A stretch of 64,000 nucleotides of DNA, from IMG/VR virus record IMGVR_UViG_3300020048_006428, positions 183,178 through 247,177 of that record. One strand, 5' to 3'. Of the stretch, positions 454-46,497 are shown in pieces (position 1 is the first letter of the stretch; every line of letters begins with the position of its first letter). The DNA is from a virus. Lineage: Duplodnaviria; Heunggongvirae; Uroviricota; Caudoviricetes. Both the position numbers and the translations under genes were made by a program. The notes beneath the pieces are model-generated. The model saw only the letters and a list, made by a program, of their open reading frames with translations, did no database searches and was not told the DNA's origin.

Positions 454-1128
454 TTGAAAAATTATACTTATATTTGTGTAAATATTAAAACTATGATCAA
501 CTATAACAACTTCTATTACATATTTCCACCAAGACCAAAGAATGCAATTCCACCATCAGAATTGAATGAATGGGATGATAATTCAATGATAGGTCAATTA
601 AAATTCAATGGGTCAAATGCTGTCATTTTTATGAATGGCAAAGATGTTTTTGTTTTTAATAGACATGGTGATAGATTAACAAATATTGATTTGGATAAAG
701 ACGAAATATCAAAACTTTATTCTGGAAGTGGTTGGATGGTAATTAATGGTGAATATCTAAATAAATCTAAAAAAGATGAAAACTCTTTAACATTTAATCA
801 TAAATTGATTATATTTGATATATTGGTGTATAATTCTGAATATTTGTTGGGAAATACATTTATCCAAAGAATTGAATTATTGGATAAATTATTTAATAAA
901 AACGAATCAGAAAAGGAATATCTTTTTAAAGTATCAGAAAATATTTATAGAGTCAAATCATTTTTGACTGGCTTTAAAGATATGTTTGATGGTTATACAA
1001 AAATTGATATGATTGAAGGTATTGTCTTAAAAAGAAAAAATTCAAAACTTGAATTGGGCAATACAACTGATAACAATTTCAAAGGGCAAATTAAAAGCCG
1101 CAAAAAAACAAAAAATTACAAATTTTAA
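454..1128 (+). CDS. ATP-dependent RNA ligase-like nucleotidyltransferase (Rnl2-type)
   Basis: motif I LKFNGSN (KxNGxN), motif III INGEYL, motif IV EGIVLKRK. Confidence 0.5.
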   Translation: MKNYTYICVNIKTMINYNNFYYIFPPRPKNAIPPSELNEWDDNSMIGQLKFNGSNAVIFMNGKDVFVFNRHGDRLTNIDLDKDEISKLYSGSGWMVINGEYLNKSKKDENSLTFNHKLIIFDILVYNSEYLLGNTFIQRIELLDKLFNKNESEKEYLFKVSENIYRVKSFLTGFKDMFDGYTKIDMIEGIVLKRKNSKLELGNTTDNNFKGQIKSRKKTKNYKF

Positions 1129-1637: not shown

Positions 1638-2393
1638 ATGAAAACTATAAATATAACAATAGGATTACCTGGATCTGGTAAAACAACTTTTTGTAAAAAT
1701 GCAGCTAATAATGCAGCGCATATTATTGAAACTGATAAATATATCAAAAAAGATTTTGCTGAAAAGTTAAAATATAATTTGAATAATAAAATAGATTCAT
1801 TATATTTTAATGATATTTATGTTGATGGATTATTTGCAGAAACGGATGATATCATAAAGATATTAAATTCAATAGATTCAAAAAAAGACTTTTCCGTAGT
1901 TATTCATTATTTTATACCAAACATTGAAGCTTGTTTATGGAACGATAAATACAGAAGAAATGTTAGTTCAAAAATAACTATTGAGAATATGATAATTTCT
2001 AAACCAAATTTAGAAATTTTAGAAAAAAAATTTACTAATATAAAATTCTCTATAAGAGAACATATAACTATGAAAACTGAACTTTGGAAAAAATTTGCAG
2101 AAAAAAATAATGTTTATCTATCAGGTAAATATTTAGAAAGCCAAACTTGGTGTATGGGTGGAACATATGGAAATTGTTGGGGTGATCAAAAGTACTCTGT
2201 ATCAAGTGATGAACCAAATGAGTTTACTGAACTTGATTTACTTTTGGAAAAAACAGCACCAAATCTAAAGTTTTTAAAAAAATTGAACGTGAATGTATTG
2301 ATACTGATAGCAATTACGAATCTGATTATTATGGTGGTCGTGTTGAATATGGCTATTGGAAATGTGATTTTGAAAAATTATTTTCAATATTAG
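1638..2393 (+). CDS. P-loop polynucleotide kinase-like protein (T4 Pnk kinase-domain-like), hydrophobic C-terminus
   Basis: N-terminus MKTINITIGLPGSGKTTF closely resembles T4 Pnkp kinase Walker A (ILTIGCPGSGKST); no phosphatase domain seen. Confidence 0.45.
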   Translation: MKTINITIGLPGSGKTTFCKNAANNAAHIIETDKYIKKDFAEKLKYNLNNKIDSLYFNDIYVDGLFAETDDIIKILNSIDSKKDFSVVIHYFIPNIEACLWNDKYRRNVSSKITIENMIISKPNLEILEKKFTNIKFSIREHITMKTELWKKFAEKNNVYLSGKYLESQTWCMGGTYGNCWGDQKYSVSSDEPNEFTELDLLLEKTAPNLKFLKKLNVNVLILIAITNLIIMVVVLNMAIGNVILKNYFQY

Positions 2394-23900: not shown

Positions 23901-24095
23901 AATTTCAGATTTTAAATATCCGAAAGATGGTAATGTAAATTGTTTTATTACCCCACTTTGATCAGCAATATTAACTGTAACAGATGGATCTGATGTTGTT
24001 ACTAAATTATTTATTTTTGATAATAAATCAACAATATTATTATTAAAATTAATAACTTGTTCTGCTACTGTTACAAATGAATTTTGACCTGCCAT
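20901..24095 (-). CDS. giant protein (1064 aa) with central coiled-coil, probable structural protein
   Basis: intact 3.2-kb ORF; stop overlaps start of 1452-aa gene. Confidence 0.5.
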   Translation of the reverse strand: MAGQNSFVTVAEQVINFNNNIVDLLSKINNLVTTSDPSVTVNIADQSGVIKQFTLPSFGYLKSEIDRLNNNINSIYGINEAGALIQPSNGSKFKKVVTVDLNREPNDIGSLNQLTTFKTKKNWFFDGLLNPQIFVELDLNSQIENNVRKILCRRYIPEFAKDSSGNFTPLGQSALNSFNNLFKNKNGFTLDEYLEWHLNTPGLIESINPNYDEQLFDLEPNILEYDGTFTVLKVEEDTINRKLFYYVDTLSYVRNITVNGVITQEAIELKVNDELIINTPISTTRYKIIEISNTSSNPKLRFERVEGNEPIPVGVGTLKIYSPVLYNKNVLISVGYNERNILFIKGLNMENYILSKNWSSGLGFWTNDLRESDTGTSMEQFYTDIVYDYGQVLTDLVAKKTPNTLAGTPNLVTLNIDNFKVVQINKHLTDTPDSNLIKNKHNQQKNIKSEIKQIYDALSEKTKQLKVQRFTSESEKKQFSNELDLLNKNKESKSKLLSSVTSEILDMSKSPNIKVNPIFRIRGFWSIPEAVITRGTKPQEIVQFRIQYKYLSKDGRESPVETTVLSDSNTNQKTGAISNWNEFKTDTRKRTFDATTGVYTWEIEDVADADTPNINQLDIPIRYGEKVLIRIKSISEVGWPESPVESDWSNELTLEFPDDLNNVLNENDFILKEATKEDLRVSVQNDLSAKGLDEHLSEQVTVNNVTYHHQSDKILSGFKDENGIALDLFEYLKKLENKIVSLEEKIKRAKGELEVSIFRNSELFIVKNGSEIVFNIECEDYLDNYTAAGVPTGRVYQNNIYVIKDFLMKLKNKSTESPLGLLSNRTYSDSNSDLYNNATPQVFWVNQQNELVVDNSTGTTKTQNNYQYLWSVNYDSVKQTTVTKLSENIGNGFVNLGSNSITNILSSSEYNVGYSGRSILTFVGNNNSLLDTTKWIDTNVSVSSTTKLLTSIHPQVQGLDKIQETNADKIKNLDGGDKNDINIPINIYFKMNSVDSSLPGLNYQYINLNSSKSTVTHIKKLRFLLENEADNRPFIFTIKFVINRSKVISKKTLASTPTQLISNR

Positions 24096-24748: not shown

Positions 24749-25552
24749 ATGGTAGACGTACAAGCAATTAAATCTTTTAGTGAGCAAGATTCTTATTTTA
24801 AAGAACGAACAGGTAATGATTTTACTTTCTTTTATAATAAGTATTACCCAAAACTTATTTATTTCACAACCAAAATGTGTAATAATGATATTCAAAAAGC
24901 AGAAGATATAACAACTGATTCTTTTATGACTGCATTTGATAAAATATATATGTATGAAAAAGATAAATCACAATTTTCAACATGGTTATTTACAATTGCA
25001 AGAAATTTTGTCTTACAAGATATTAAGAAGAAAAAGAAAACAATTTCACTTGATGTTGAATTTGATGAAGAAGGCACAACCTTAAAAGACTTTATTCAAG
25101 AAGATGAAGATTTAAGTTATATTTCCGATGTAGCAAGTAAAAAGGCTGTTATTTTAAATAAATATATTAATGAATTAAAAGAACCCTATAAAAAGGTTAT
25201 AGAAATGCGTGAAATCAAAAAGATGACTTATAGAAATATTGCTTCTGATTTAGGTGATGATATAACTATAACTTTGGATATAACTTCAGAAGAAGAATTT
25301 GAACTTCCTAAAGAAATATCATTGATTTATAATTTCGTTGATTCTAACGGTAATGAAAGTGGATATGAAGCAATAGTAAAACCAAAATCTCCTTTCTTTA
25401 CTTATATTAAAGCTTTACCAGGTAAATATACACTACATGGTAGATGTCCTAAAAATCTAAATACAGTTAAAAGTTCCATTAAAAATGGAAGGGCAATACT
25501 TATAAATAAATCTAAAAAAGAATTTCAGATACTTGATGAAATGTTTTTGTAA
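24749..25552 (+). CDS. sigma-70 family (ECF-like) RNA polymerase sigma factor with C-terminal extension
   Basis: region 2 AEDITTDSFMTAFDK..FSTWLFTIARNFVLQDIKK; region 4 LKEPYKKVIEMREIKKMTYRNIASDLG. Confidence 0.55.
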   Translation: MVDVQAIKSFSEQDSYFKERTGNDFTFFYNKYYPKLIYFTTKMCNNDIQKAEDITTDSFMTAFDKIYMYEKDKSQFSTWLFTIARNFVLQDIKKKKKTISLDVEFDEEGTTLKDFIQEDEDLSYISDVASKKAVILNKYINELKEPYKKVIEMREIKKMTYRNIASDLGDDITITLDITSEEEFELPKEISLIYNFVDSNGNESGYEAIVKPKSPFFTYIKALPGKYTLHGRCPKNLNTVKSSIKNGRAILINKSKKEFQILDEMFL

Positions 25553-26641: not shown

Positions 26642-27340
26642 TTAATAGAATTTAAAATATCTACCCTTGATAGACTTCATCTTTTCATTACAAACTCTAC
26701 TTATATTACTATTATCTATTTTAGTTGATCTTGAACAGTCCATTATTGAATCCCATTTTTCTATTATATTACCAAATTCATCAATTTCAACAACACACTT
26801 TCTAACAGCGTTTGGATTATCTATTTTTTTAACTGCTACTTTTTTAAATCTAAATATAAAACCACCTGTATGTGAAAATATACCATTACACGATCTTGAT
26901 ATATTTGAATGTGATAATTCTAATACTTCTGCTGCAAATCTAACAGATTTAAATTTTTGTATAAAATCACCATTTAAATCATATTGATAAACAATTTTAC
27001 TTATTTTTTTAATTGCACGATCTATAATTTCTCTTTTTCTGTTAATATTACCTTGCCCAGTTTCATCAGAATTTGTTAATTTACTATCTTTATATAATCT
27101 TATAAATTCTGTTTCATATTTAACAAATTCTGTTAAAGGACATATCTTTAATATTTTCATTAAAGGTTTTAGATTTTTTTTAATAAGACTATTTATCCAA
27201 ATTGATCTGTAGTTGTGTTCTTTTTTACAATACAAATGTTGTCTAAGTCTATCTTTAGGATTTATCGTCTTCCCTATATATCTAACACTATTATCCCTTG
27301 GATCTAACAATGCATATATGTATGCTATATCTGTTTTCAT
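26642..27340 (-). CDS. GIY-YIG homing endonuclease-like protein
   Basis: IAYIYALLDPRDNSVRYIGKT...R..H GIY-YIG motif; lone minus-strand gene among + genes. Confidence 0.6.
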   Translation of the reverse strand: MKTDIAYIYALLDPRDNSVRYIGKTINPKDRLRQHLYCKKEHNYRSIWINSLIKKNLKPLMKILKICPLTEFVKYETEFIRLYKDSKLTNSDETGQGNINRKREIIDRAIKKISKIVYQYDLNGDFIQKFKSVRFAAEVLELSHSNISRSCNGIFSHTGGFIFRFKKVAVKKIDNPNAVRKCVVEIDEFGNIIEKWDSIMDCSRSTKIDNSNISRVCNEKMKSIKGRYFKFY

Positions 27341-27425: not shown

Positions 27426-27746
27426 ATGATTACATATGTAAAAGAATTAACAAGTGAAAACTACAACGAATCAATTTCAAGAGGGATTGTTCTTGTTGAT
27501 ATAAAAAGTACATGGTGCGGACCATGTGGTACTCTTTCACCAATTATTGATGAAGTCGGTGCTCACTTTGGTAGTAGTGTGTTAGTTGGTAAACTTGATG
27601 TTGATGCAAATATTGAAACTGCCCAAGAATTAGGTATTAGAAATATACCAACTGTCCTTATTTATAAGGATGGTGAAATTGTTGATAGATTTACTGGAAT
27701 TAAATCTAAAAATGAAATTATTAAGTTAGTTGAAGTGTGGATTTAA
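27426..27746 (+). CDS. thioredoxin
   Basis: WCGPC active site in 106-aa protein. Confidence 0.8.
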   Translation: MITYVKELTSENYNESISRGIVLVDIKSTWCGPCGTLSPIIDEVGAHFGSSVLVGKLDVDANIETAQELGIRNIPTVLIYKDGEIVDRFTGIKSKNEIIKLVEVWI

Positions 27747-27753
27747 ATAGAAA

Positions 27754-28140
27754 TTGGACTTAGTAATAGGTAAAAATGGTGGCTGGAAACAAGATATAAA
27801 TATTGGAAAACGTAATAATCAGAATTTCGTACAGATACCCCATTCTATGTTTATAAAAATGTTAGAATATAAATGTAAACTTAGAGGAATTAATGTCTTC
27901 TTAATAGAAGAAAGTTACACCAGTAGGTGTAGTTTTTTAGATGATGAAGATATCAAAAAACAAAAAGTTTATAAAGGAAGTAGAATAAAAAGAGGTTTAT
28001 TTAAGAGTGAAAAAGGTATTTTAATCAATGCTGATGTTAATGGATCTTTAAATATACTAAAAAAAGTAGTTGGAAAGTTTAATTATAATCCAATAGAGGT
28101 GTGTAGTATACCAATGGTAATAACCATAAAATTTAACTAA
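27754..28140 (+). pseudogene. TnpB (IS200/IS605 OrfB) C-terminal remnant
   Basis: EESYTSRCSF and ADVNGSLNILKK match TnpB RuvC-III/Zn-finger region, but only 128 aa and Zn-finger cysteines lost. Confidence 0.45.
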
Positions 28141-30769: not shown

Positions 30770-31201
30770 ATGAATAAGATAGTAAATAGAAAAGCAAATT
30801 ATGAATACCACAATATTAAAGAATATATTGCAGGTATTCAATTGCTTGGATCAGAAGTAAAATCACTAAGAAAAGGTGAATGTAATATAACAGAAGCATA
30901 TTGTTATATTATAAACAATGAAGTATTTTTAAAAAATATGTATATTGCAAGACACGACCAATCTTTGATAAATCACGAAGAAAAACGTGATAGAAAATTA
31001 CTTCTTTCTAAAAAAGAAATTAGAGATATTTCTAAAATGGTTAGAGAAAATGGAATAACTTTAATTCCATTGGAACTTTTTACCAAGCAAGGACTGTTTA
31101 AGTTTAAAATATCAGTTGTAAAAGGCAAAAAGGATTTTGATAAAAGAAATTCTTTGCGGGAGAAAGACGCTAAGAGAGAAATGGAAAAATCTTTAAAATA
31201 A
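30770..31201 (+). CDS. smpB: SsrA-binding protein SmpB
   Basis: VNRKANYEYHNI..GIQLLGSEVKSLRKGECNITEAY..RKLLLSKKEI..VKGKKDFDKR aligns along full length with E. coli SmpB. Confidence 0.8.
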   Translation: MNKIVNRKANYEYHNIKEYIAGIQLLGSEVKSLRKGECNITEAYCYIINNEVFLKNMYIARHDQSLINHEEKRDRKLLLSKKEIRDISKMVRENGITLIPLELFTKQGLFKFKISVVKGKKDFDKRNSLREKDAKREMEKSLK

Positions 31202-31369
31202 ATAAATATATTAAGATTAAAATCTTTATATATAATATATGATGAAGTATACAAAAAAGACCAGATTTCTAATAAAGAAAGAAACAAAGAAGAAATAGAA
31301 TACTATATCTTTGCAGATTGGTATTTTCATAATGTAGTATGTGAATAATTAACTTTTTAAAAAAGCCTA

Positions 31370-31573
31370 ATGAATAAAATTAAACTTATTGCTAAAAACA
31401 TAATCCTTTGGGTTATGTTTATTTTAATCGGAAACTTATATGCCGAATATATTATAAGCAGAGAAATGTTTGCATTTATACAAATTGTTTCAAGCTTATT
31501 TATGATTGGATTTCTGTTTTTCAACATCTATTTTCTTATTAAATCACTTCAAAAATTTTCAACAAATGATTAG
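31370..31573 (+). CDS. small membrane protein
   Basis: two hydrophobic segments. Confidence 0.3.
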   Translation: MNKIKLIAKNIILWVMFILIGNLYAEYIISREMFAFIQIVSSLFMIGFLFFNIYFLIKSLQKFSTND

Positions 31574-32498
31574 TATTCTAATTGTATTAGTTACCATTAT
31601 CACAGCATCAACATATGCTTTCTTGTCAAAAGATAAAATGTTCATTCAAAATAAACATTCAAAATCGTTCAATATTTTTTGGACTTTTCCCATAATCGCA
31701 ATTGTTCTTATTGGTTCAGGAATTACAATGTTCCAACCATATAAACTTGAACGAGTTGATTCCGGTCATAAAGGACTAAAAGTAAATCTTACCGGAAATG
31801 ATAGGGGTGTTTCAAATTATCAATATAAAACTGGTTGGGTTCTATATAATTCCTGGATTTCACAGATGCTTGAATTTCCAACATACCAGCAACATATTGA
31901 ATATGAAGTTCAAGAAGTAATTACAAAAGGTGGATTTTCAGCATCCATAAAGCCAAGTTTTAACTATTCTCTTAGAGAAGATGCTATTGGTGATATGTTT
32001 ATAAATTTAAGATTATCTATTAAAGAAGTTGAACAGGGTTGGTTGAAAAATGCAATTGTATCATCAGTTAATGACGTTGCGAATAGATGGGAAGTTGATG
32101 AAATTTTTAATAAACGAGAAGAATTTGAATCAGCTATTATCAACGAATGTAATAAAAGGGTTTCTAAATGGTTTGTAGTATCTCAATTAAGAACAAATAT
32201 TGTTCCACCAAAGTCACTACAAGCAGCAATTGAATCTAAAACAACCGCTATTCAACAAGCACAAGCAGAAGATCAAAAAGCTAAAACCGCAGAAGCAGAA
32301 GCAAGAAAGAAAATTGCAATTGCTAAAGGTGATTCAGCAGATATTGTAATTAGAGCTAATGCAGATGCAATGGCAATTAAAATTAGACAAACTGAAATCA
32401 CCACACAATATATTGAATATATAAAAGCTGATAAGTGGAATGGTGTTCTACCAACAACTATAACAAATGGAACTGGAACATTTTTAAATATTAAATAA
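31566..32498 (+). CDS. SPFH/band-7 (prohibitin/stomatin-like) membrane protein
   Basis: N-terminal TM then SPFH-like core; C-terminal AIESKTTAIQQAQAEDQKAKTAEAEARKKIAIAKG.. typical of HflK/C-type tails. Confidence 0.5.
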   Translation: MISILIVLVTIITASTYAFLSKDKMFIQNKHSKSFNIFWTFPIIAIVLIGSGITMFQPYKLERVDSGHKGLKVNLTGNDRGVSNYQYKTGWVLYNSWISQMLEFPTYQQHIEYEVQEVITKGGFSASIKPSFNYSLREDAIGDMFINLRLSIKEVEQGWLKNAIVSSVNDVANRWEVDEIFNKREEFESAIINECNKRVSKWFVVSQLRTNIVPPKSLQAAIESKTTAIQQAQAEDQKAKTAEAEARKKIAIAKGDSADIVIRANADAMAIKIRQTEITTQYIEYIKADKWNGVLPTTITNGTGTFLNIK

Positions 32499-32774
32499 AT
32501 ATCTTGGAACTTTTCTAAACTTATATTGGTTATACATATATAACATTTAACAAACAGTAAAAATATTTTAAAAATAAATTAAAAAAGTCGAAAAGGGAAC
32601 TTTAAACTTTAATATATATTATATAATAAACAAACAAATAAAATTATGAAAGCAGTATTTTCACATAAAAACTTTAGTAAATCGTCAAAATGGTTTAGTC
32701 CATTTATCGGTTCTGATAATGTATTGCCTAATATATTTATAAGTTAATTATTAACTAATAATAAGGAATATAAA

Positions 32775-32811
32775 AATCTGAATCGACATATGTAGATTCA
32801 GATTTTTTTTT
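32775..32811 (+). terminator. terminator hairpin before tRNA cluster
   Basis: aatctgaatc gacatatgta gattcagatt + T9. Confidence 0.55.
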
Positions 32812-32822
32812 GATAAAAATAT

Positions 32823-32896
32823 GATCCTGTAGCGTAATTGGGTAACGCAAATTGCTTTTAACAATTTAGATGCAAGTTCAAATCTTGCCAGGATCA
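32823..32896 (+). tRNA. tRNA-Lys (anticodon TTT)
   Basis: acceptor gatcctg/caggatc, T-loop gcaagttcaaatcttgc, anticodon loop cttttaa. Confidence 0.6.
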
Positions 32897-32919
32897 CAAA
32901 AATATTAAATTTTAAAAAT

Positions 32920-32996
32920 GGTGATGTAGCTGAATTGGTCTAGCACCTGATTGAAGATTAGGGATTATGTGGGTTCAAATCCCATCGTCACCACCA
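32920..32996 (+). tRNA. tRNA-Phe (GAA), CCA encoded
   Basis: acceptor ggtgatg/cgtcacc, anticodon loop ttgaaga, gggttcaaatccc T-arm, 3' acca. Confidence 0.6.
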
Positions 32997-33004
32997 ATAA
33001 ATAA

Positions 33005-33086
33005 GGAAGAGTACACGCTGGAATGTGGGGCTGTTTTGAAAACAGTTAAGTCTTACGATTTGAGGGTTCGAGTCCCTCTTCTTCCT
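33005..33086 (+). tRNA. tRNA-Ser (TGA), long variable arm
   Basis: acceptor ggaagag/ttcttcc, anticodon loop tttgaaa, T-arm gagggttcgagtccctc. Confidence 0.5.
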
Positions 33087-33097
33087 CAAATTACATT

Positions 33098-33169
33098 TTG
33101 TATGAACCCAAATGGCGAGGGACAATATTGTGAATATTGGTTTAGCGAGTTCGATCCTCGTCATACAAG
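33098..33169 (+). tRNA. tRNA with anticodon GTG (His-like but no G-1)
   Basis: acceptor ttgtatg/catacaa, anticodon stem caata/tattg loop ttgtgaa, T-arm gcgagttcgatcctcgt. Confidence 0.4.
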
Positions 33170-33180
33170 CAAAATTATAT

Positions 33181-33268
33181 GGAAGCGTAGCATAATGGTA
33201 ATGCAGCAGTCTTGAAAACTGCCGTGTCGTGTAAAAGCGGCTTGTGAGTTCGAATCTCACCGCTTCTT
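33181..33268 (+). tRNA. tRNA-Ser (TGA), long variable arm
   Basis: anticodon stem gcagt/actgc loop cttgaaa; T-arm gtgagttcgaatctcac. Confidence 0.5.
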
Positions 33269-33275
33269 CTAAAAT

Positions 33276-33363
33276 GGAAGATTGACAGAATGGTATTGTG
33301 CTGTCCTGCTAAGACAAGGCTATCGGTAACACCGGTACATAGGTTCGAATCCTATATCTTCCG
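33276..33363 (+). tRNA. tRNA-Ser (GCT), long variable arm
   Basis: acceptor ggaagat/atcttcc perfect; anticodon loop ctgctaa; T-arm ataggttcgaatcctat. Confidence 0.5.
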
Positions 33364-33372
33364 CAAAATTTT

Positions 33373-33448
33373 GGTGATGTAGCTGAATGGTCTAGCACCT
33401 GATTGAAGATCAGGGATTATGTGGGTTCAAGTCCCACCATCACCACCA
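33373..33448 (+). tRNA. tRNA-Phe (GAA), CCA encoded, second copy
   Basis: acceptor ggtgatg/catcacc; anticodon stem cctga/tcagg loop ttgaaga; 3' acca. Confidence 0.6.
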
Positions 33449-33451
33449 AAT

Positions 33452-33524
33452 AGGGATATAGTTCAATGGTTTAGAATAATCGGTTCCAACCCGATTGATG
33501 TGGGTTCGAATCCTACTGTCCCTG
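33452..33524 (+). tRNA. tRNA-Trp (CCA)
   Basis: anticodon stem atcgg/ccgat loop ttccaac; T-arm gtgggttcgaatcctac; acceptor agggata/tgtccct. Confidence 0.6.
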
Positions 33525-33708
33525 CAAACTTTTTTAAAATTTAAAAACATTTAGAAAAATAAAGTAACAAATATATGGAATGTCCAAAATGTAAAAATGA
33601 TGAAAATCTACATTATAATTTAGATTATTCTAAAAAAGAATTACCCATAATTGATTCTTTGTAATGAATGTGGTGAATTATTTGAATGTAAAGAAGAAAA
33701 GTAAACAT

Positions 33709-33781
33709 GGTGTGTGTAGCTCAGAGGCAGAGCATTCGGTTGTGATTCGAAATGTCGGGATATCGTAATTCCTCATGCACC
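33709..33781 (+). tRNA. tRNA-His (GTG) with G-1:C73
   Basis: D-arm tagctcagaggcagagca; anticodon stem ttcgg/tcgaa loop ttgtgat; extra 5' G pairing with discriminator C; T-loop unusual. Confidence 0.45.
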
Positions 33782-33799
33782 CAAAAAAATTATACAATT

Positions 33800-33873
33800 G
33801 GCACTATACCCGTAAAGGCATCCGGAATTGATTCTTGCTCAAAATTATGTAGGTTCGACTCCTACTAGTGTCA
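33800..33873 (+). tRNA. tRNA-like, possibly Lys (CTT)
   Basis: acceptor ggcacta/tagtgtc; T-arm gtaggttcgactcctac; anticodon loop ttcttgc; D-stem imperfect. Confidence 0.3.
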
Positions 33874-34253
33874 CACAAACTAAAAAAATATATATGATAA
33901 TCCACAAGCACGAAAATTCTGATAGTATGTCAGAATATGAATATAAAGATTTAGAAGCACTTGATATAGATGAAATCTGGTATAAATATAATTGTGGTAG
34001 CTATGAAGGTAGTGGTCAACTAATTGCAAGAAAGGCGATTTGTTTTCACATCATGATATGGGGCATTGTTCTTGTTATGGTGGTGTTGAAAGATTTGAAT
34101 TTAATGGTAGACCTTTAGATGAATTAATATCTTATCTAAAGAAAAATCAAGAATATTATTATAATGAAATAATGGAAGTTTTGAGTTTTATGAAAGTTTA
34201 TATTAGAAATTTAAATAATTAGGAAGATAAACTGTTTTGGTGAACAGTCACGA

Positions 34254-34808
34254 TTGGAAATCGTTGAGTACGTAGTTATGTATCAGTTTCGATTACTGTA
34301 TCTTCCGCTATATATGATGTCATTTGATGAATTTTGGGAATGTTTTGATGAAGCATTTAATGATCCAATCCAAATAAAGTGGATTGATAAACCTTATGAA
34401 TACATAGGGTTATTTACTTTGAATAATAAAGTCTATAATATTTATACTATAAATAAAGGTGATAATATTTGGACTTTTAAATTTTATGTTTATTTAGATG
34501 GTAAATTATCACCTAATCTAACAAATGATTATAAAAATATGTTTAGGGTTTTACCAACAATTAAACAAGGATTTATTGATCTTATAAATGAAAAAAATCC
34601 AGATGGTATAATATTTGGTGCTTTAGATGAATCAGAAGTAAGAAAGAAACTATATAATAGTTTTTCTATTGATATATCAAAGCAATTTGATTATGAATAT
34701 ACATCAAAAGAAAAAGATAATAAGAAAATTTATATCTTATATAAACCAAATATAAATAAAGAAATACTTTTTAATAAAATAATTCAAATTACAACTGATG
34801 AAATATGA
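34254..34808 (+). CDS. hypothetical protein
   Basis: ORF after tRNA cluster. Confidence 0.4.
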   Translation: MEIVEYVVMYQFRLLYLPLYMMSFDEFWECFDEAFNDPIQIKWIDKPYEYIGLFTLNNKVYNIYTINKGDNIWTFKFYVYLDGKLSPNLTNDYKNMFRVLPTIKQGFIDLINEKNPDGIIFGALDESEVRKKLYNSFSIDISKQFDYEYTSKEKDNKKIYILYKPNINKEILFNKIIQITTDEI

Positions 34809-35026
34809 AAAAGAAAGACAATATAGAAATTCAAAAAGAATTTGATGACAAGGTTAAAAATATCAAAAAGCGAAAGCGTTCTTTAGATAAATTAACCGAT
34901 CCTTTTTTAAAGAAGAAAATTAAAAAAGATTTAAATAATGAATATCGTTCATCCAAACGTTCTGAAAAAAATGAAATAAAACAATGGATGAAAGATCAAA
35001 TAAACAAAGACGATGAAACAATATGA
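34805..35026 (+). CDS. small lysine-rich hypothetical protein
   Basis: ORF overlapping neighbours by ATGA. Confidence 0.35.
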   Translation: MKKKDNIEIQKEFDDKVKNIKKRKRSLDKLTDPFLKKKIKKDLNNEYRSSKRSEKNEIKQWMKDQINKDDETI

Positions 35027-35663
35027 TAAAATAGAGTATTATAATAAAATTCCATTTGGATTAGATTGTATTGCTTTTGATAAATTAGATGGTTCAAATT
35101 TAAGATTTGAATGGGGTGCTAAAAAAGGTTGGTATAAATTTGGAACTAGAAATGTAATGATTGATAGGACTAATGAGCAATTTGGAATTGGAATTGATAT
35201 TTTTTTAAATAAATATGGTGAAAAATTAGATAATATATTCAAAACTAAGTATAAAAAAGTACTTAGTTTTGTAGTTTTTTGTGAATTTTATGGTGATAAT
35301 TCTTTTGCAGGGCAACATCTTGAATCAGATTCAAAAGATGTTGTTCTTTTTGATGTTAATCAATATCAAAAGGGAATTATTGATCCATTTGAATTTGTTG
35401 ATAATTTTGGTGAATTAGGTATACCAAAAATTATTTATAAAGGTGATTTCAATGAAGAACTTGTATCTGATATAAAAAATAATAAATACAACTTATCCGA
35501 AGGTGTAATTATAAAAGGTATAAAAAAGACAAAGAAATCAAGTGAAGTTTTTATGGCTAAAATAAAAACAAAAGAATGGTTGAATAAAGTAAAAGATAAA
35601 TTTGGGGAGAATTATCTATTGGATGAATTAAATGGTGATCAAAATTTAATAAACGAATATTAA
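35013..35663 (+). CDS. RNA ligase (Rnl2-type nucleotidyltransferase)
   Basis: motif I DKLDGSN, motif III FCEFYG, motif IV EGVIIKG. Confidence 0.6.
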   Translation: MKQYDKIEYYNKIPFGLDCIAFDKLDGSNLRFEWGAKKGWYKFGTRNVMIDRTNEQFGIGIDIFLNKYGEKLDNIFKTKYKKVLSFVVFCEFYGDNSFAGQHLESDSKDVVLFDVNQYQKGIIDPFEFVDNFGELGIPKIIYKGDFNEELVSDIKNNKYNLSEGVIIKGIKKTKKSSEVFMAKIKTKEWLNKVKDKFGENYLLDELNGDQNLINEY

Positions 35664-35664
35664 A

Positions 35665-36378
35665 ATGAATACAAAGAAAAGATTTAAAAATCTAAGGTGT
35701 ATATCTCCGGAATATCAAAGAATACCACACTTTAACAAAGAAATATCTAATATGACTTTTGATGATATCGAATTGGATATACCAATTCAATTCCCATTTG
35801 AATGTTGGATTATGGAAAAAGTTGATGGTGCTAATATGGGTGTATCTTGGATTAATAGTGCTATATTAAGGAATAGAAACAATATTCTTAAAAAAGGATA
35901 TATTGAAAAAGACACACCAGCTAAATTGCAATTTAGACCAGCTTGGAATTGGATAAATGAACATAATAAAGATATTCAATTTATATCTAAAGAATGTCAT
36001 TCACCAGTAACAATATATGGGGAATGGCTTTATGCTAAACATTCAATAGAATATGATAAATTACCTGATTATTTTTTAGCTTATGATATATGGGTTGTTG
36101 AAGATATAAATTTCTTAGCACCTGATAAAGTTGAAGAGTTGTTAAAACAAACAAATATATCATATATCAAACCAATTAAAACTGTTTTAAATTCTATTGA
36201 TGATATAATTCAATTTTCTGAAATGCAATCTGATTTCAGAAATGGTATAGTTGAAGGGATAGTTGTTAAAACAGCAGATGGTAGATTCTTAAAAGATACT
36301 TGGAAAGTAGTAAATAAATATTTTAAAAGAACTGATGATTTCCATATTGAATTAATTAAAAACAAGTTGAAGAAATGA
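35665..36378 (+). CDS. RNA ligase-like nucleotidyltransferase, second tandem copy
   Basis: motif I EKVDGAN, III IYGEWL, IV EGIVVKTADG. Confidence 0.55.
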   Translation: MNTKKRFKNLRCISPEYQRIPHFNKEISNMTFDDIELDIPIQFPFECWIMEKVDGANMGVSWINSAILRNRNNILKKGYIEKDTPAKLQFRPAWNWINEHNKDIQFISKECHSPVTIYGEWLYAKHSIEYDKLPDYFLAYDIWVVEDINFLAPDKVEELLKQTNISYIKPIKTVLNSIDDIIQFSEMQSDFRNGIVEGIVVKTADGRFLKDTWKVVNKYFKRTDDFHIELIKNKLKK

Positions 36379-36971
36379 AAAACATAACCAAAAAAATAGC
36401 TAAAATAAGAATTATAAATTATATTGTAATGATAGCAGTTATAGCAATTACATTGATACCAACTACAATTTATAGTTTAGATTATACCTGGTGGTTATGG
36501 CCAATATTTGTTTTTGAAATGTTATTTATAACAATTGCCGTAGAAAGGGTAGATGGTAAAATTAAAACACTTGATGATTTGATATCAAATTCATATAAAC
36601 CAATTGGAATTACTATAAATAGACATAAAATATCAATAGCTGATCAAACAGAAGGTTATATCATAACAGTTGTGTTTCATATGAGGTTTTTTAATAAGAT
36701 AAGATATGTACAAAAGTATAATGATCCTTTTGGTAGATCATTTAAATATTTAGATGATTACACAGAACGCAACAGTATTAAAATTAAATCTGATGAGTTA
36801 GTATCTGTTTCCAATATTATACTAACCTCAAATGCATCAGAAGCACATACATTTGAATCAAAAAGTGAATGTGATGCAGTATCACGTCAGATAATAAATA
36901 TGTTTCCTATGGATGTATTATCTGAAAAACAATCAACTGTTCTGCCTTATTCAGAGGATTATTATTTTTGA
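36375..36971 (+). CDS. integral membrane protein
   Basis: two long hydrophobic helices near N-terminus. Confidence 0.4.
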   Translation: MKNITKKIAKIRIINYIVMIAVIAITLIPTTIYSLDYTWWLWPIFVFEMLFITIAVERVDGKIKTLDDLISNSYKPIGITINRHKISIADQTEGYIITVVFHMRFFNKIRYVQKYNDPFGRSFKYLDDYTERNSIKIKSDELVSVSNIILTSNASEAHTFESKSECDAVSRQIINMFPMDVLSEKQSTVLPYSEDYYF

Positions 36972-39804: not shown

Positions 39805-40614
39805 ATGTATAATTTATATTATTTGAAATCTACGCTTGATGATAAAATTTATGTTGGTATAACCAATAATCCGGAACGTAGATATTATGAACACATCCAC
39901 TACACAGTTGAAAAAAATCACTACAATGGAAATTGGATAAGAAAGACACTTAAAAATGGTGGTGAAATAAAAATGGAAGTTGTTTTATCCAATTTAACAA
40001 AAAAAGCAGCAATTCAATTAGAAATTAGATTAATTGAAATGTTAAAAAAACTAACACCTAAATATATTACTAATACAGCACAAGGGGGTTATGGATTCAA
40101 TCACAAAGGAATACCACATTCAGAAGAACATAAAAAAGCTTTAGAAAAAGCCCAACCACATAAAGTTAGAATTCCAAAAGATATACTCTATGATTTATAT
40201 GTAAATAAAAAATTATCAAAGAAGAAAATAGGTAAAATTTATAATTGTGGACCTACAACTATTGATAGAAGATTAATTGAATATGGTATACAAGCTAGAA
40301 CAACAATTAATTATAAAGTTAGCTATAAATTAGATAAGGATGAAATATTAGATATGTTCATAAATAAACAAATTAGTATATCTGAAATAGCAAATATATT
40401 TAATATTGGTGATAATGGAATTCGGTCTTTATTAAAAAGGGAAGGTATAGACACTGGATTAAATAAAAACAAATTAAAATATGATAGAATAAAAATCAAA
40501 GAAAGATATTTAATTCTATTAAATGAAAACAAAAAGAAAAAAGAAATATATGATATTATAACAAAAGAATTCAATTTAAAAGATAGATATTCTATATCAA
40601 AATGTGTTAGATAA
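39805..40614 (+). CDS. GIY-YIG endonuclease-like protein
   Basis: YNLYYLKSTLDDKIYVGITNNPERRYYEH. Confidence 0.55.
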   Translation: MYNLYYLKSTLDDKIYVGITNNPERRYYEHIHYTVEKNHYNGNWIRKTLKNGGEIKMEVVLSNLTKKAAIQLEIRLIEMLKKLTPKYITNTAQGGYGFNHKGIPHSEEHKKALEKAQPHKVRIPKDILYDLYVNKKLSKKKIGKIYNCGPTTIDRRLIEYGIQARTTINYKVSYKLDKDEILDMFINKQISISEIANIFNIGDNGIRSLLKREGIDTGLNKNKLKYDRIKIKERYLILLNENKKKKEIYDIITKEFNLKDRYSISKCVR

Positions 40615-45918: not shown

Positions 45919-46497
45919 ATGAATATACACCAACACCAACAAACAATAACAAAAGAAGATAGAATTAAACTAACAAATCAAACACCGTTTGTTATTTGGT
46001 TTACTGGGTTATCCGGTTCAGGTAAAAGCACAATTGCCAATGAACTATCAAAAAAGCTATATGAATTAGGAAAACTTAGTTATATATTAGATGGTGATAA
46101 TATCAGATTAGGTCTTAATAAAGATTTAGGATTTTCAGAAACTGATAGAAAGGAAAACATAAGAAGAATTTCCGAAGTTGCAAAACTAATGGTGGATTCT
46201 GGTATATTAGTAATAACTGCCTTTATATCACCTTTTGCTGCTGATCGAGAATCAGCTAAACAAATTATAGGAAATGAAAATTTTATTGAAGTGTTTATTG
46301 ATACACCACTTGAAGTTTGTGAACAAAGGGATCCAAAAGGTTTATATAAAAAAGCTAGAATAGGGGAAATTAAACAATTTACTGGAATTAGTTCACCTTA
46401 TGAGTTTCCGGTTAATCCAGATTTAACTATAACAACAAATGAAACCGAAGAAGAATCAAGTCAAAAGATTCTTGATTTTATTAAAAATAAAATTTAA
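45919..46497 (+). CDS. cysC: adenylylsulfate (APS) kinase
   Basis: VIWFTGLSGSGKSTIA..LDGDNIRLGLNKDLGFSETDRKENIRRISEVAKLM..ITAFISP..FIEVFIDTPLEVCEQRDPKGLYKKARIGEIKQFTGI about 55% identical to E. coli CysC by eye. Confidence 0.8.
   Translation: MNIHQHQQTITKEDRIKLTNQTPFVIWFTGLSGSGKSTIANELSKKLYELGKLSYILDGDNIRLGLNKDLGFSETDRKENIRRISEVAKLMVDSGILVITAFISPFAADRESAKQIIGNENFIEVFIDTPLEVCEQRDPKGLYKKARIGEIKQFTGISSPYEFPVNPDLTITTNETEEESSQKILDFIKNKI

What the first reader, a model, noticed from the sequence alone, without database searches (positions are those of the whole stretch)
30770..36378. Virus-encoded translation-rescue and tRNA-repair toolkit: SmpB, about ten tRNAs, and two tandem Rnl2-type RNA ligases in one 5.6-kb stretch
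A full-length SmpB (aligns end to end with E. coli SmpB) sits 1.6 kb upstream of a cluster of about ten tRNA genes. The cluster holds Lys-TTT, two Phe-GAA with encoded CCA, up to three Ser, Trp-CCA and a His with G-1. Immediately downstream are two adjacent RNA ligases with KxDGxN, EGxVxK and related motifs. I could not locate a tmRNA (ssrA) gene in the window. SmpB without an adjacent ssrA implies either an ssrA elsewhere in the genome or hijacking of host tmRNA. tRNA genes with flanking RNA ligases suggest active repair of tRNAs cleaved by host anticodon nucleases (the PrrC/RloC paradigm), and tRNA-Lys(TTT), the classic PrrC target, is the first gene of the cluster.
Basis: partly seen in the sequence, partly recalled or inferred. 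Interest (0 to 1): 0.75.

Follow-up and report, generated by a model that had tools for sequence, protein, structure and literature searches.

The report
Megaphage SmpB, tRNA array, RNA ligases
This stretch of a giant bacteriophage genome does carry a ribosome-rescue protein (SmpB), about ten tRNA genes and two small RNA-joining enzymes, but this gene set has already been described for this clade of huge phages, so the find is sound but largely expected.

Summary
ORF 30770-31201 is a full-length SmpB. It scores 164 bits on PF01668 and passes both NCBIfam equivalog cut-offs. Ten tRNA genes reach the default ARAGORN or Rfam thresholds, and there is one marginal extra. Two adjacent ORFs (35013-35663 and 35665-36378) are PF09414 RNA-ligase nucleotidyltransferases with intact catalytic motifs. 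No tmRNA gene lies in the window.

The DNA is a 24% GC piece of a Mahaphage/Lak-type huge phage. Its closest relatives are LR745206 and LR756502. The layout SmpB, tRNA array, 73-aa ORF and two ligases is conserved across that clade. Al-Shayeb 2020 and Iyer 2021 already reported SmpB, tmRNAs, tRNA arrays and tRNA-ligating enzymes in such phages.

Corrections and additions:
- The two ligases are distant paralogues and bare catalytic domains. One resembles the T4 Rnl2 N-domain. The other is the sealing domain of "Swiss Army Knife" heal-and-seal RNA-repair proteins.
- Two complete relatives carry SmpB but no detectable tmRNA, which favours use of host tmRNA.
- The array is one piece of a near-complete tRNA set, and Lys is first only here, so the PrrC/tRNA-Lys argument is weak.
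- No end-healing enzyme is in the window. Stand-alone 2H and Pnk genes lie elsewhere in the relatives.

Verdict: new member of a known kind, modest interest.

The parts
30770..31201 (+). SmpB (SsrA-binding protein), 143 aa, with an intact C-terminal tail (DKR...KRE)
   Evidence: PF01668 164 bits. NCBIfam equivalogs above cut-off. Aligns end to end with solved SmpBs. Core and tail residues are conserved with phage and Bacteroidota SmpBs.
31506..32498 (+). SPFH/Band-7 membrane protein lying between SmpB and the tRNAs. It is not part of the toolkit and has no counterpart at this position in the relatives.
   Evidence: PF01145 78.8 bits and phrog_200. No tblastn match in LR745206 or LR756502.
32823..32897 (+). 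tRNA-Lys(UUU), class I, with the canonical anticodon loop CUUUUAA
   Evidence: ARAGORN. Rfam 69.7 bits.
32920..32996 (+). tRNA-Phe(GAA), CCA encoded
   Evidence: ARAGORN. Rfam 58.5 bits.
33005..33087 (+). tRNA-Ser(UGA), 83 nt, short variable arm
   Evidence: ARAGORN. In Rfam only a sub-threshold tRNA-Sec-model match, 35.8 against 47 bits. The anticodon read from the alignment is UGA.
33098..33170 (+). Marginal, degenerate tRNA-His(GUG)-like element with a 3-bp D stem and no G-1:C73
   Evidence: Found only with ARAGORN at a relaxed threshold (-ps80). It has a good T arm. Rfam does not report it.
33181..33269 (+). tRNA-Ser(UGA), class II
   Evidence: ARAGORN. Rfam 60.6 bits.
33276..33364 (+). 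tRNA-Ser(GCU), class II
   Evidence: ARAGORN. Rfam 51.1 bits.
33373..33448 (+). tRNA-Phe(GAA), second copy, CCA encoded
   Evidence: ARAGORN. Rfam 65.4 bits.
33452..33525 (+). tRNA-Trp(CCA)
   Evidence: ARAGORN. Rfam 64.6 bits.
33709..33781 (+). tRNA-His(GUG) with G-1 (33709) opposite C73. Its T loop starts A-T-C, as in the relatives' tRNA-His.
   Evidence: Rfam 39.3 bits against a gathering score of 29. Compared with His tRNAs of L001 and L002. Missed by ARAGORN at default settings.
33800..33873 (+). tRNA with anticodon CUU (Lys) and two mismatched stem pairs
   Evidence: Rfam 41.3 bits against a gathering score of 29. Missed by ARAGORN at default settings.
34222..34308 (+). tRNA-Ser(GGA), class II, ending 6 nt before the first ORF of the ligase operon
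   Evidence: ARAGORN. Not reported by Rfam. Ser(GGA) occupies the same position in L021, L025, L026 and L029.
34314..34808 (+). ORF of 164 aa, function unknown, first gene of the ligase operon
   Evidence: Gene call in the source contig. Matches only PHROGs of unknown function. No Pfam or NCBIfam hit.
34805..35026 (+). orf73: a small lysine-rich protein always found with the two ligases. It overlaps its neighbours by 4 and 14 nt.
   Evidence: tblastn hits next to the ligases in LR745206, LR756502 and all nine IMG/VR loci. No family hit.
35013..35663 (+). LigA: 216-aa ATP-dependent RNA-ligase-like nucleotidyltransferase, catalytic domain only, closest to the T4 Rnl2 N-domain
   Evidence: PF09414 36.9 bits. 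Invariant K24, D26, G27, E91, D114, E163, G164, K168, K183 and K185. Model pLDDT 94.5. Best PDB matches are 1S68 and 2HVQ (T4 Rnl2) at E 1e-8. A homologue exists in Xanthomonas phage XacN1.
35665..36378 (+). LigB: 237-aa RNA-ligase nucleotidyltransferase with a conserved N-terminal Y-x-R-I-P-H motif. It is a stand-alone form of the ligase domain of 'Swiss Army Knife' RNA-repair proteins.
   Evidence: PF09414 96.7 bits. Invariant K52, D54, G55, N57, E197, G198, K202 and K214. Model pLDDT 83. Best PDB match is NgrRnl/Rnl5, then Rnl3. Fused homologues carry 2H, PTP and Pnk domains.
36375..36971 (+). ORF of 198 aa with hydrophobic N-terminal segments. It overlaps the LigB stop by 4 nt and is the last gene of the operon. 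Function unknown.
   Evidence: ORF map. No family hit. Not conserved next to the ligases in relatives.
454..1128 (+). Third minimal ligase-like nucleotidyltransferase (KFNGSN), outside the reported interval. It lies directly after LigB in one relative.
   Evidence: PF01068 47.2 bits and PF09414 24.4 bits. phrog_114. Adjacent to LigB in L028.
1638..2393 (+). P-loop kinase-like ORF (GLPGSGKT). A weak candidate for a polynucleotide kinase; not established.
   Evidence: AAA_33 25.2 bits, below cut-off. phrog_505 'polynucleotide kinase' at E 3e-5 over the P-loop only. SAK-Pnk HMM 24.9 bits, about the same as the window's APS kinase at 24.1.

Best explanation
The stretch is one segment of the translation-maintenance gene set of a Mahaphage/Lak-type huge phage, which most likely infects Bacteroidota. 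It has three parts.

1. SmpB. The phage carries a full, apparently functional SmpB of Bacteroidota ancestry. No tmRNA gene was detected. The protein most likely loads host tmRNA onto ribosomes stalled on truncated mRNAs. That would keep ribosome rescue running through a long infection in which host gene expression and RNA integrity are disturbed.

2. tRNA array. The array is one block of a near-complete phage tRNA set. That set serves an extremely AT-rich codon usage and makes translation less dependent on host tRNAs.

3. Ligase operon. The array runs straight into an operon: orf164, orf73, LigA, LigB, orf198. It encodes two different minimal ATP-dependent RNA ligases. These most likely reseal broken RNAs, tRNAs included, that carry 3'-OH and 5'-phosphate ends. 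Those ends would be prepared by stand-alone 2H phosphoesterase and polynucleotide kinase enzymes encoded elsewhere in the genome.

Shown here: the gene identities, the intact catalytic and binding motifs, the conserved synteny, the absence of a detectable tmRNA in complete relatives, and the fusion of LigB-type domains to end-healing domains in other organisms.

Inferred: the host, the use of host tmRNA, the RNA (tRNA) substrates, and cooperation of the ligases with dispersed healing enzymes.
For: Identity of the parts.

Phage origin and clade: DNA and protein matches to LR745206, LR756502 and the Lak phages. The source contig is 353,919 bp.

Conserved layout: SmpB, tRNA array, orf73, LigA and LigB occur together in LR745206 and LR756502. 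The orf73-LigA-LigB trio is present in all 8 IMG/VR loci that contain a full-length LigB. tRNA arrays lie upstream in most of them.

SmpB looks functional and is of Bacteroidota origin. The invariant core and the tail residues are kept. The nearest cellular homologues are Balneola (50%), Prevotellaceae (48%) and Bacteroidia (48%).

No tmRNA: none in the window. None in complete LR745206 by ARAGORN and by Rfam across all 634,780 bp. None in complete LR756502 by ARAGORN. None in 10 further loci.

tRNA demand: AAA is the top codon at 87 per 1000. TTT, TCA and AGT are preferred over their GC-ending synonyms. LR745206 has 59 tRNAs covering all 20 amino acids.

Ligases intact: motif I, III, IIIa, IV and V residues are invariant across 32 homologues of each. 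Both models are confident and have the ligase fold.

Repair link: 44 of the 149 top LigB-profile representatives are multidomain proteins. Of the 10 scanned with Pfam, 7 combine the ligase domain with end-healing domains (2H-SAK, PTP-SAK and/or AAA_33 kinase). Stand-alone 2H ORFs (two HxT motifs) and Pnk ORFs (P-loop) exist in both complete relatives.

Literature: Al-Shayeb 2020 and Iyer 2021 describe the same categories of genes in huge and jumbo phages.
Against: - No biochemical or expression data exist for any of these genes.
- No end-healing enzyme was found in the 64-kb window. The only candidate, 1638-2393, scores about the same as an APS kinase.
- Both ligases lack the accessory domains that characterised ligases need to engage substrate: the Rnl2 C-domain, the Rnl5 N-domain, or an OB fold. 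Activity on their own is therefore uncertain.
- Closeness of tRNA genes and ligases could simply reflect shared placement in one transcription block.
- The remaining ~290 kb of this contig, and any unassembled part of the genome, could not be searched for tmRNA.
- The second relative could be checked for tmRNA only with ARAGORN.
- The host is inferred, not shown.
- Trp and His are the rarest amino acids in the window's ORFs. Codon demand alone does not explain which tRNAs sit in this particular block.
Confidence: 0.6

Rival explanations
1. T4-style countermeasure aimed at a PrrC/RloC-type anticodon nuclease. Host nuclease cuts tRNA-Lys, and the two ligases next to the tRNA genes rejoin it.
For: tRNA-Lys(UUU) is present and comes first in this array. 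RNA ligases are adjacent. LigB-type domains are fused to healing domains elsewhere. Phage tRNA repair enzymes counteract PrrC, as stated in the abstract of PMC2610378.
Against: The T4 pathway uses Pnkp plus Rnl1. Rnl1 is a lower-ranked structural match for both proteins. No Pnkp is in the window. Lys is not first in any relative's array. The anticodon loop of the phage tRNA-Lys is canonical, so it shows neither evasion nor special targeting. The arrays cover all amino acids.
Confidence: 0.1
2. Supply, not repair. The tRNAs exist only to match AT-rich codon usage or to replace depleted host tRNAs. The ligases act on other substrates, such as nicks in RNA:DNA or duplex RNA, replication or recombination intermediates, or phage RNAs. 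Their position beside the tRNAs is then a by-product of genome organisation.
For: Strong AT codon bias. A complete tRNA complement in the relative. The Rnl2-like and Rnl5-like enzymes that LigA and LigB most resemble are nick sealers, as the PDB titles say. A third ligase-like gene of DNA-ligase flavour belongs to the same family cluster. No healing enzymes lie nearby.
Against: The trio sits beside tRNA arrays in more than ten genomes despite rearrangements of gene order. The last tRNA ends 6 nt before the operon's first ORF. LigB's fused homologues are dedicated heal-and-seal RNA-repair proteins.
Confidence: 0.2
3. The phage has its own tmRNA elsewhere in the genome, and SmpB works with that rather than with host tmRNA.
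For: Al-Shayeb 2020 reports both tmRNAs and SmpB among huge phages. About 2% of isolated phages encode tmRNA. Only 64 kb of a genome of at least 354 kb was visible.
Against: Two complete genomes of the closest relatives have SmpB and no tmRNA. This rests on ARAGORN for both and on all Rfam tmRNA models for one.
Confidence: 0.1
4. The phage SmpB is an antagonist or re-director of host trans-translation. It could be a decoy that ties up host tmRNA, or a variant that changes tagging outcome, rather than a helper of ribosome rescue.
For: There is no partner RNA. The phage SmpBs are 6-14 residues shorter than Bacteroidota SmpBs at both ends.
Against: All invariant core positions and the basic C-terminal tail (DKR...K.KD.KRE) are kept, and the family is conserved at 55-67% identity across many phage contigs. 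This is the pattern expected for a working SmpB.
Confidence: 0.07

Closest known systems
Translation gene sets of huge phages (Mahaphage clade, Lak megaphages; Al-Shayeb et al. 2020, PMC7162821)
   Same: Same clade by sequence: 50-65% amino-acid identity to LR745206 and LR756502. Same categories of genes: SmpB, large tRNA arrays, and enzymes for ligating cleaved tRNAs. Same synteny.
   Different: This is a different genome, ENA ERZ27262918, with 24% GC against 29-31%. The paper lists tmRNA and SmpB together. In the two complete relatives checked here SmpB occurs without a detectable tmRNA.
Bacterial SmpB-tmRNA trans-translation system
   Same: Full-length SmpB that passes equivalog models and has a conserved C-terminal tail.
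   Different: The gene is in a virus. No ssrA gene was found in the window or in complete relatives. The protein is slightly shorter than its Bacteroidota homologues at both termini.
Phages that encode tmRNA but not SmpB (for example Methylophilales phage Melnitz, PMC9004378)
   Same: A virus carries one half of the two-part ribosome-rescue system and must rely on the host for the other half.
   Different: The division is the reverse: protein from the phage, RNA presumably from the host. SmpB is rarer in phages. tblastn finds it in 68 of 50,697 records, mostly megaphages. One search gives 402 of 18,146 phage genomes with tmRNA.
T4 Pnkp + Rnl1 tRNA repair against PrrC
   Same: A phage encodes ATP-dependent RNA ligases. 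The logic of restoring tRNAs cut by host nucleases may apply.
   Different: The ligases are not Rnl1-type, no bifunctional Pnkp is present, and no link to tRNA-Lys is conserved.
T4 RNA ligase 2 (Rnl2) and kinetoplastid REL1
   Same: LigA's best structural matches are the Rnl2 nucleotidyltransferase domain (1S68, 2HVQ, 2HVR) and TbREL1 (1XDN). Motifs I, III, IIIa, IV and V are present.
   Different: LigA is 216 aa and ends about 30 residues after motif V, so the Rnl2 C-terminal domain is absent. Sequence similarity to solved ligases is undetectable by phmmer.
'Swiss Army Knife' multidomain RNA-repair proteins (Pfam 2H-SAK PF22547 and PTP-SAK PF22784; Burroughs & Aravind 2016, cited as ref. 178 in PMC7824862)
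   Same: The LigB profile matches their C-terminal ligase domain at E 1e-26 to 1e-33, including the N-terminal R-I-P-H region.
   Different: LigB is the ligase domain alone. In the relatives the 2H and kinase functions are separate genes tens to hundreds of kb away, and no PTP homologue was found.
Naegleria gruberi RNA ligase (Rnl5) and archaeal Rnl3
   Same: These are the best PDB fold matches for LigB (E 4e-6, TM about 0.5) and good matches for LigA (TM 0.61-0.65).
   Different: Neither phage protein has the Rnl5 N-terminal domain or the Rnl3 dimerisation and C-terminal domains.
Multiple Rnl2-family paralogues in jumbo phage XacN1 (Iyer et al. 2021, PMC7824862)
   Same: XacN1 ORF354 (207 aa) is a LigA homologue at 38% identity. 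The paper proposes that paralogous ligases repair different RNA lesions.
   Different: In XacN1 the gene is not next to a LigB-type gene or a tRNA array in the 16-kb stretch examined.

Membership tests
SmpB (PF01668 / TIGR00086 / NF003843) | Whole-protein score above the curated cut-offs | tested here: met
   164 bits against 27, 157.6 against 119.1, and 165.1 against 130.
SmpB | Full length, including the basic C-terminal tail needed for A-site and mRNA-channel engagement | tested here: met
   Aligned to residue 143 of 143 with Aquifex SmpB and to residue 141 with M. tuberculosis SmpB. The tail motif G-K-K-x-x-D-K-R...K-R-E is conserved in phage and Bacteroidota sequences.
SmpB-tmRNA system | A tmRNA (ssrA) gene in the same genome | tested here: not met
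   None in the window. None in complete LR745206 or LR756502. The rest of this genome could not be read.
SmpB-tmRNA system | Binding of SmpB to the tRNA-like domain of tmRNA, and tagging activity | not testable with these tools
   Needs a binding or complementation assay.
tRNA (RF00005) | Cloverleaf with a score above the gathering threshold or the ARAGORN default | tested here: met
   Eight by ARAGORN. Eight by Rfam at 39-70 bits against 29. The union is ten. One more appears only at a relaxed threshold.
Bacterial tRNA-His | G-1 paired with C73 | tested here: met
   G at 33709 and C at 33781, flanking the acceptor stem GUGUGUG/CAUGCAC.
Covalent nucleotidyltransferase RNA ligases (PF09414) | Motif I lysine (KxDG) plus motifs III, IIIa, IV and V | tested here: met
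   LigA: K24, D26, G27, E91, D114, E163, G164, K168, K183, K185. LigB: K52, D54, G55, E120, D141, E197, G198, K202, K214. These residues are invariant or nearly so in 32 homologues of each. Pfam scores are above cut-off.
Rnl2 family (T4 Rnl2 type) | Nucleotidyltransferase domain most similar to Rnl2 | tested here: inconclusive
   LigA: T4 Rnl2 gives the best E-values (1e-8), but NgrRnl has equal or higher TM scores. LigB: Rnl2 ranks 32nd at E 1e-3.
Rnl2 family (T4 Rnl2 type) | All-helical C-terminal domain of about 90 aa following motif V | tested here: not met
   LigA ends 31 residues after K185 and LigB ends 23 residues after K214. All homologues are 208-246 aa.
Rnl1 family (T4 tRNA-repair ligase) | Rnl1-type fold with the C-terminal tRNA-specificity domain | tested here: not met
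   T4 Rnl1 structures rank low for both proteins (rank 17 or lower for LigA, 26 or lower for LigB), and the proteins are too short for the extra domain.
Rnl5 family (NgrRnl / DraRnl) | N-terminal OB-like domain preceding the nucleotidyltransferase domain | tested here: not met
   LigB has only a 45-residue N-terminal extension, modelled at low confidence. LigA's motif I lies at residue 24.
Swiss Army Knife RNA-repair ligase clade | Ligase domain homologous to the C-terminal domain of proteins with 2H, PTP, Pnk and ligase domains | tested here: met
   LigB profile against P0432, P0446, P0455 and others gives E 1e-30 to 1e-33. Pfam shows their architectures. The LigA HMM does not match them.
Swiss Army Knife RNA-repair ligase clade | End-healing domains (2H, PTP, Pnk) in the same protein or locus | tested here: not met
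   No such domain lies in or near the operon. Stand-alone 2H and Pnk genes are present elsewhere in LR745206 and LR756502, but there is no convincing hit in the window.
T4-type anticodon-nuclease countermeasure | Host anticodon nuclease (PrrC/RloC) and ligation of cleaved tRNA-Lys | not testable with these tools
   The host genome is unknown, and an in-vitro ligation assay is needed.

The most novel reading that the evidence does not exclude
There are two linked possibilities that go beyond the published descriptions.

(a) This megaphage clade carries SmpB but no tmRNA. It therefore takes over the host's tmRNA with a virus-made protein partner. That is the reverse of the known phages that supply tmRNA and borrow host SmpB.

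(b) The invariably linked trio of orf73 (a 73-aa lysine-rich protein), LigA and LigB forms a split, multi-subunit RNA ligase. Substrate binding, which accessory domains in cis provide in all characterised ligases, would here be supplied in trans. The complex would work together with dispersed 2H and Pnk enzymes as a disassembled 'Swiss Army Knife' repair system.
Probability: 0.2. Interest if true: 0.55.

Novelty: new member of a known kind. Interest (0 to 1): 0.3.

Why it matters
The region adds a new, more AT-rich genome to the huge-phage clade whose members carry the largest known viral translation toolkits. The conserved layout of that toolkit can now be read at gene level.

Two points are directly testable:
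- Whether a viral SmpB can drive ribosome rescue with host tmRNA. Two complete relatives have SmpB and no detectable tmRNA.
- Whether 210-240-aa ligases that consist of the catalytic domain alone are active, singly or together with the small basic protein always encoded beside them.

If both hold, they would show how giant phages keep host ribosomes and RNAs working during long infections. They would also provide unusually small RNA ligases. None of this changes the general picture already published.

Tried and rejected
- tmRNA in the window. Searched with ARAGORN, Rfam at gathering score and at E<=1, and a T-arm motif scan. Nothing was found outside the tRNA cluster.
- Suppressor or selenocysteine tRNA. 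The Sec-model hits at 33005-33085 and in LR745206 (L014 47031-47115) have Ser anticodons, UGA and GCU. Stop-codon use is standard: TAA 42, TGA 7, TAG 5, with long intact ORFs. Recoding is rejected.
- LigA and LigB as a recent tandem duplication. Rejected.
- A Rosetta-stone link between LigA and LigB. Three SAK proteins contain two ligase domains, but the second is not LigA-like. This gives no support.
- Pnkp in the window. ORF 1638-2393 matches only over the P-loop and scores no better than the APS kinase. Not accepted.
- Sigma-70 promoter scan. It found fewer sites than in shuffled sequence, so it is uninformative.
- phmmer of the ligases against PDB sequences gave no usable hits. Structure prediction was needed.
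- SmpB single-sequence scan of IMG/VR returned only one locus.
- Burroughs & Aravind 2016 could not be opened. It is cited only through the reference list of PMC7824862 and the Pfam family names.
- The supplement search of Al-Shayeb 2020 did not identify the annotation of these particular genomes.

Full report
WHAT IS THERE

The window is 22-32% GC throughout, and most genes lie on the + strand. In the reported interval, ORF 30770-31201 is SmpB. It scores 164 bits on PF01668. It passes the two NCBIfam equivalog models, 165.1 against 130 and 157.6 against 119.1. It aligns with solved SmpB chains over residues 5-143, including the C-terminal tail.

ARAGORN finds eight tRNA genes. Rfam finds eight above its gathering score, and two of those are genes ARAGORN misses: His-GUG at 33710-33781 with G-1 at 33709, and a CUU-anticodon tRNA at 33800-33873. 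The union is ten:
- Lys-UUU and Lys-CUU
- Phe-GAA twice, both with encoded CCA
- Ser-UGA twice, Ser-GCU and Ser-GGA
- Trp-CCA
- His-GUG

A degenerate eleventh, His-like at 33098-33170, appears only at a relaxed ARAGORN threshold.

The last tRNA, Ser-GGA, ends at 34308. The next ORF starts at 34314. From there five ORFs abut or overlap: 34314-34808, 34805-35026, 35013-35663, 35665-36378 and 36375-36971. This looks like one operon that follows directly on the tRNA. The third and fourth ORFs are the ligases. Both pass PF09414, at 36.9 and 96.7 bits.

No tmRNA is present by ARAGORN, by Rfam at gathering score or at E<=1, or by a scan for T-arm motifs. There are four Ser genes rather than three. 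There is a second Lys gene. Two ORFs lie between the tRNAs and the ligases.

WHERE IT COMES FROM

LigB is encoded identically on ENA contig ERZ27262918 k141_234028 (353,919 bp) with the same neighbours. The closest database relatives are the uncultured huge phages LR745206 (634,780 bp) and LR756502 (642,428 bp), followed by the Lak megaphages of Prevotella and the 735-kb phage. Al-Shayeb et al. 2020 place all of their genomes larger than 634 kb, and the Lak phages, in the 'Mahaphage' clade with predicted Bacteroidetes hosts.

Window proteins are 40-65% identical to LR745206 and LR756502. Their order is largely kept: two giant ORFs, a sigma factor, thioredoxin, SmpB, the tRNA array, orf73 and the two ligases.

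In nine IMG/VR loci found with the LigB alignment, orf73 is always next to LigB. LigA is present in all eight loci that contain a full-length LigB. Gene order varies, and tRNA arrays lie within 10 kb upstream in most loci.

SmpB

The nearest homologues (55-67% identity, about 143 aa) sit on metagenomic contigs, several of them 100-320 kb long. The nearest named cellular proteins are Bacteroidota SmpBs: Balneola at 50%, Prevotellaceae and Bacteroidia at 48%.

In an alignment of 13 phage-type and 6 cellular sequences, 27 columns are invariant. The basic tail (G-K-K-x-x-D-K-R...K-R-E) is kept. The phage proteins are only a few residues shorter at each end. This pattern fits a working SmpB captured from the host phylum.

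I stitched the complete LR745206 genome from 13 fetched pieces. It has SmpB and 59 tRNAs for all 20 amino acids. It has no tmRNA by ARAGORN and none by any Rfam model over the whole genome. LR756502 likewise has SmpB and 46 tRNAs, with no tmRNA by ARAGORN.

So SmpB without ssrA is a property of the clade's complete genomes, not an effect of the window's edges. The likeliest reading is that the phage SmpB works with host tmRNA. This is the reverse of phages such as Melnitz, which encode tmRNA only. SmpB is rare in phage records: tblastn finds it in 68 of 50,697, mostly megaphages.

tRNAs

The ORFs of the window use AAA at 87 per 1000 codons and strongly prefer A/T-ending codons. tRNA-Lys(UUU), Phe and Ser fit that demand. 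Trp and His, however, are the two rarest amino acids. The block is better seen as one of about five arrays that together form a full set, as in LR745206.

In relatives the homologous array begins with His, Phe or Met, and Lys sits in the middle. The anticodon loop of the window's tRNA-Lys is the ordinary CUUUUAA. The position of Lys at the head of the cluster therefore carries no signal for PrrC.

LIGASES

LigA and LigB share only the motif I region by BLASTP and reach 79% probability by profile-profile comparison. They are old paralogues, not a tandem duplication.

Each belongs to a populous family of uniformly short proteins: 1265 hits of 208-226 aa for LigA and 307 hits of 229-246 aa for LigB. 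The catalytic residues of both are invariant.

The AlphaFold models are confident, with pLDDT 94.5 for LigA and 83.1 for LigB.
- LigA's best solved matches are the T4 Rnl2 N-terminal domain (1S68, E 1e-8), full-length Rnl2 and trypanosome REL1. NgrRnl gives similar TM scores.
- LigB's best matches are NgrRnl (Rnl5), then archaeal Rnl3 and fungal Trl1. T4 Rnl2 reaches only E 1e-3.

Neither protein has room for the Rnl2 C-domain, the Rnl5 N-domain or an OB fold. From memory of Ho et al. 2004 (the 1S68 paper), the isolated Rnl2 N-domain adenylylates itself but cannot complete nick sealing. If that holds, bare catalytic domains may need partners.

A profile search with the LigB alignment found 1674 relatives. 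Of the top 149 representatives, 44 are proteins of 330-1184 aa with the LigB-type domain at the C-terminus. Pfam scans of ten of these show 2H-SAK phosphoesterase, PTP-SAK phosphatase, AAA_33 kinase and RNA_ligase in combination. This is the 'Swiss Army Knife' RNA-repair architecture. Its source is Burroughs & Aravind 2016, seen here only as ref. 178 of PMC7824862. It also explains the JGI label 'atypical dual specificity phosphatase' on some LigB homologues.

This domain-fusion evidence is the strongest argument that LigB seals RNA ends prepared by healing enzymes.

HMMs built from the 2H and kinase segments of those proteins detect stand-alone genes in both complete relatives:
- 2H genes with two HxT motifs, at E 1e-21
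- Pnk genes with a P-loop, at E 1e-11 to 1e-13

In LR745206 the Pnk gene lies about 1 kb upstream of another tRNA block and about 2 kb from a GOLLD RNA. In the window itself no healing enzyme is convincing. ORF 1638-2393 matches only through its P-loop.

LigA has a 38%-identical homologue in the cultured jumbo phage XacN1. Iyer et al. 2021 credit that phage with three Rnl2-family paralogues and argue that multiple ligases handle different RNA lesions.

MECHANISM AND VERDICT

The best-supported reading is a translation-maintenance island:
- SmpB keeps trans-translation going with host tmRNA.
- The tRNA block contributes to a self-sufficient, AT-adapted tRNA pool.
- The operon after it supplies two specialised RNA-sealing enzymes, which act after dispersed 2H and Pnk healing.

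The gene identities, the conservation, the absence of detectable tmRNA in relatives and the fusion evidence are shown here. The host, the substrates and the cooperation between enzymes are inferred.

The specific T4/PrrC analogy and the 'two Rnl2' label are not.

These gene categories have been published for this very clade and for jumbo phages in general. The finding is thus a new member of a known kind.

The less ordinary residue is twofold. One part is the SmpB-only arrangement. The other is the conserved trio of two minimal ligases with a 73-aa basic protein, which might form a split ligase. That idea could not be tested here.

Noticed in passing
L001 23294-23380, 23384-23467, 23473-23559; L002 18662-18931; L024 1093-1379: Relatives carry 82-91-nt tRNAs with a long, class-II-like variable arm but lysine anticodons (UUU or CUU), sitting next to a normal 74-nt tRNA-Lys. 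Class II bodies are normally Leu, Ser or Tyr. The window's own Lys tRNAs are class I.
   Followed up: partly
L016 24875-25280 (LR745206 about 420,875-421,280): A GOLLD RNA (RF02032, 287 bits) in the complete relative. It lies between tRNA genes, about 2 kb from a stand-alone polynucleotide-kinase-like ORF at 418253-418750. None is in the window.
   Followed up: no
window 454-1128, 1638-2393, 3130-3699: A third minimal ligase-like nucleotidyltransferase (motif KFNGSN, best Pfam match DNA_ligase_A_M), followed by a P-loop kinase-like ORF and a NUDIX hydrolase. In locus L028 the third ligase lies directly after LigB. In LR745206 it follows a tRNA-Cys.
   Followed up: partly
window 27754-28140; 26642-27340 (-); 39805-40614; 13423-14223: Mobile-element genes near the cluster: a 128-aa fragment with the TnpB/Cas12f TNB domain, two GIY-YIG homing endonucleases (the one at 26642-27340 also has NUMOD domains), and a tyrosine integrase.
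   Followed up: no
window 14342-15427 (-), 24749-25552, 27426-27746, 45919-46497: Other host-takeover-type genes in the window: an S1-domain protein (ribosomal protein S1-like), a sigma-70-like factor, thioredoxin and an APS kinase.
   Followed up: no
window 33575-33705: A mini-ORF between tRNA-Trp and tRNA-His reads as a CxxC...CxxC zinc ribbon interrupted by a frameshift after an A-run. It could be a pseudogene, a sequencing error or a programmed shift.
   Followed up: no
window 33709-33781; L001 22555-22790; L002 18259-18334: The tRNA-His genes of this clade have a T loop beginning A-T-C instead of the near-universal T-T-C.
   Followed up: no
window 35240-35271: A 13-bp hairpin stem, perfectly paired, inside the LigA coding sequence. 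It scores as a terminator-like site on both strands.
   Followed up: no
window 16543-20901 (-) and 20901-24095 (-): Two adjacent giant ORFs (1452 and 1064 aa) with no Pfam match, conserved at 55-63% identity in LR745206 and LR756502.
   Followed up: no
protein P0405 (608 aa, LigB homologue): A LigB-family ligase interrupted by a LAGLIDADG intein. Three 'Swiss Army Knife' proteins (P0443, P0451, P0499) contain two ligase domains each.
   Followed up: partly
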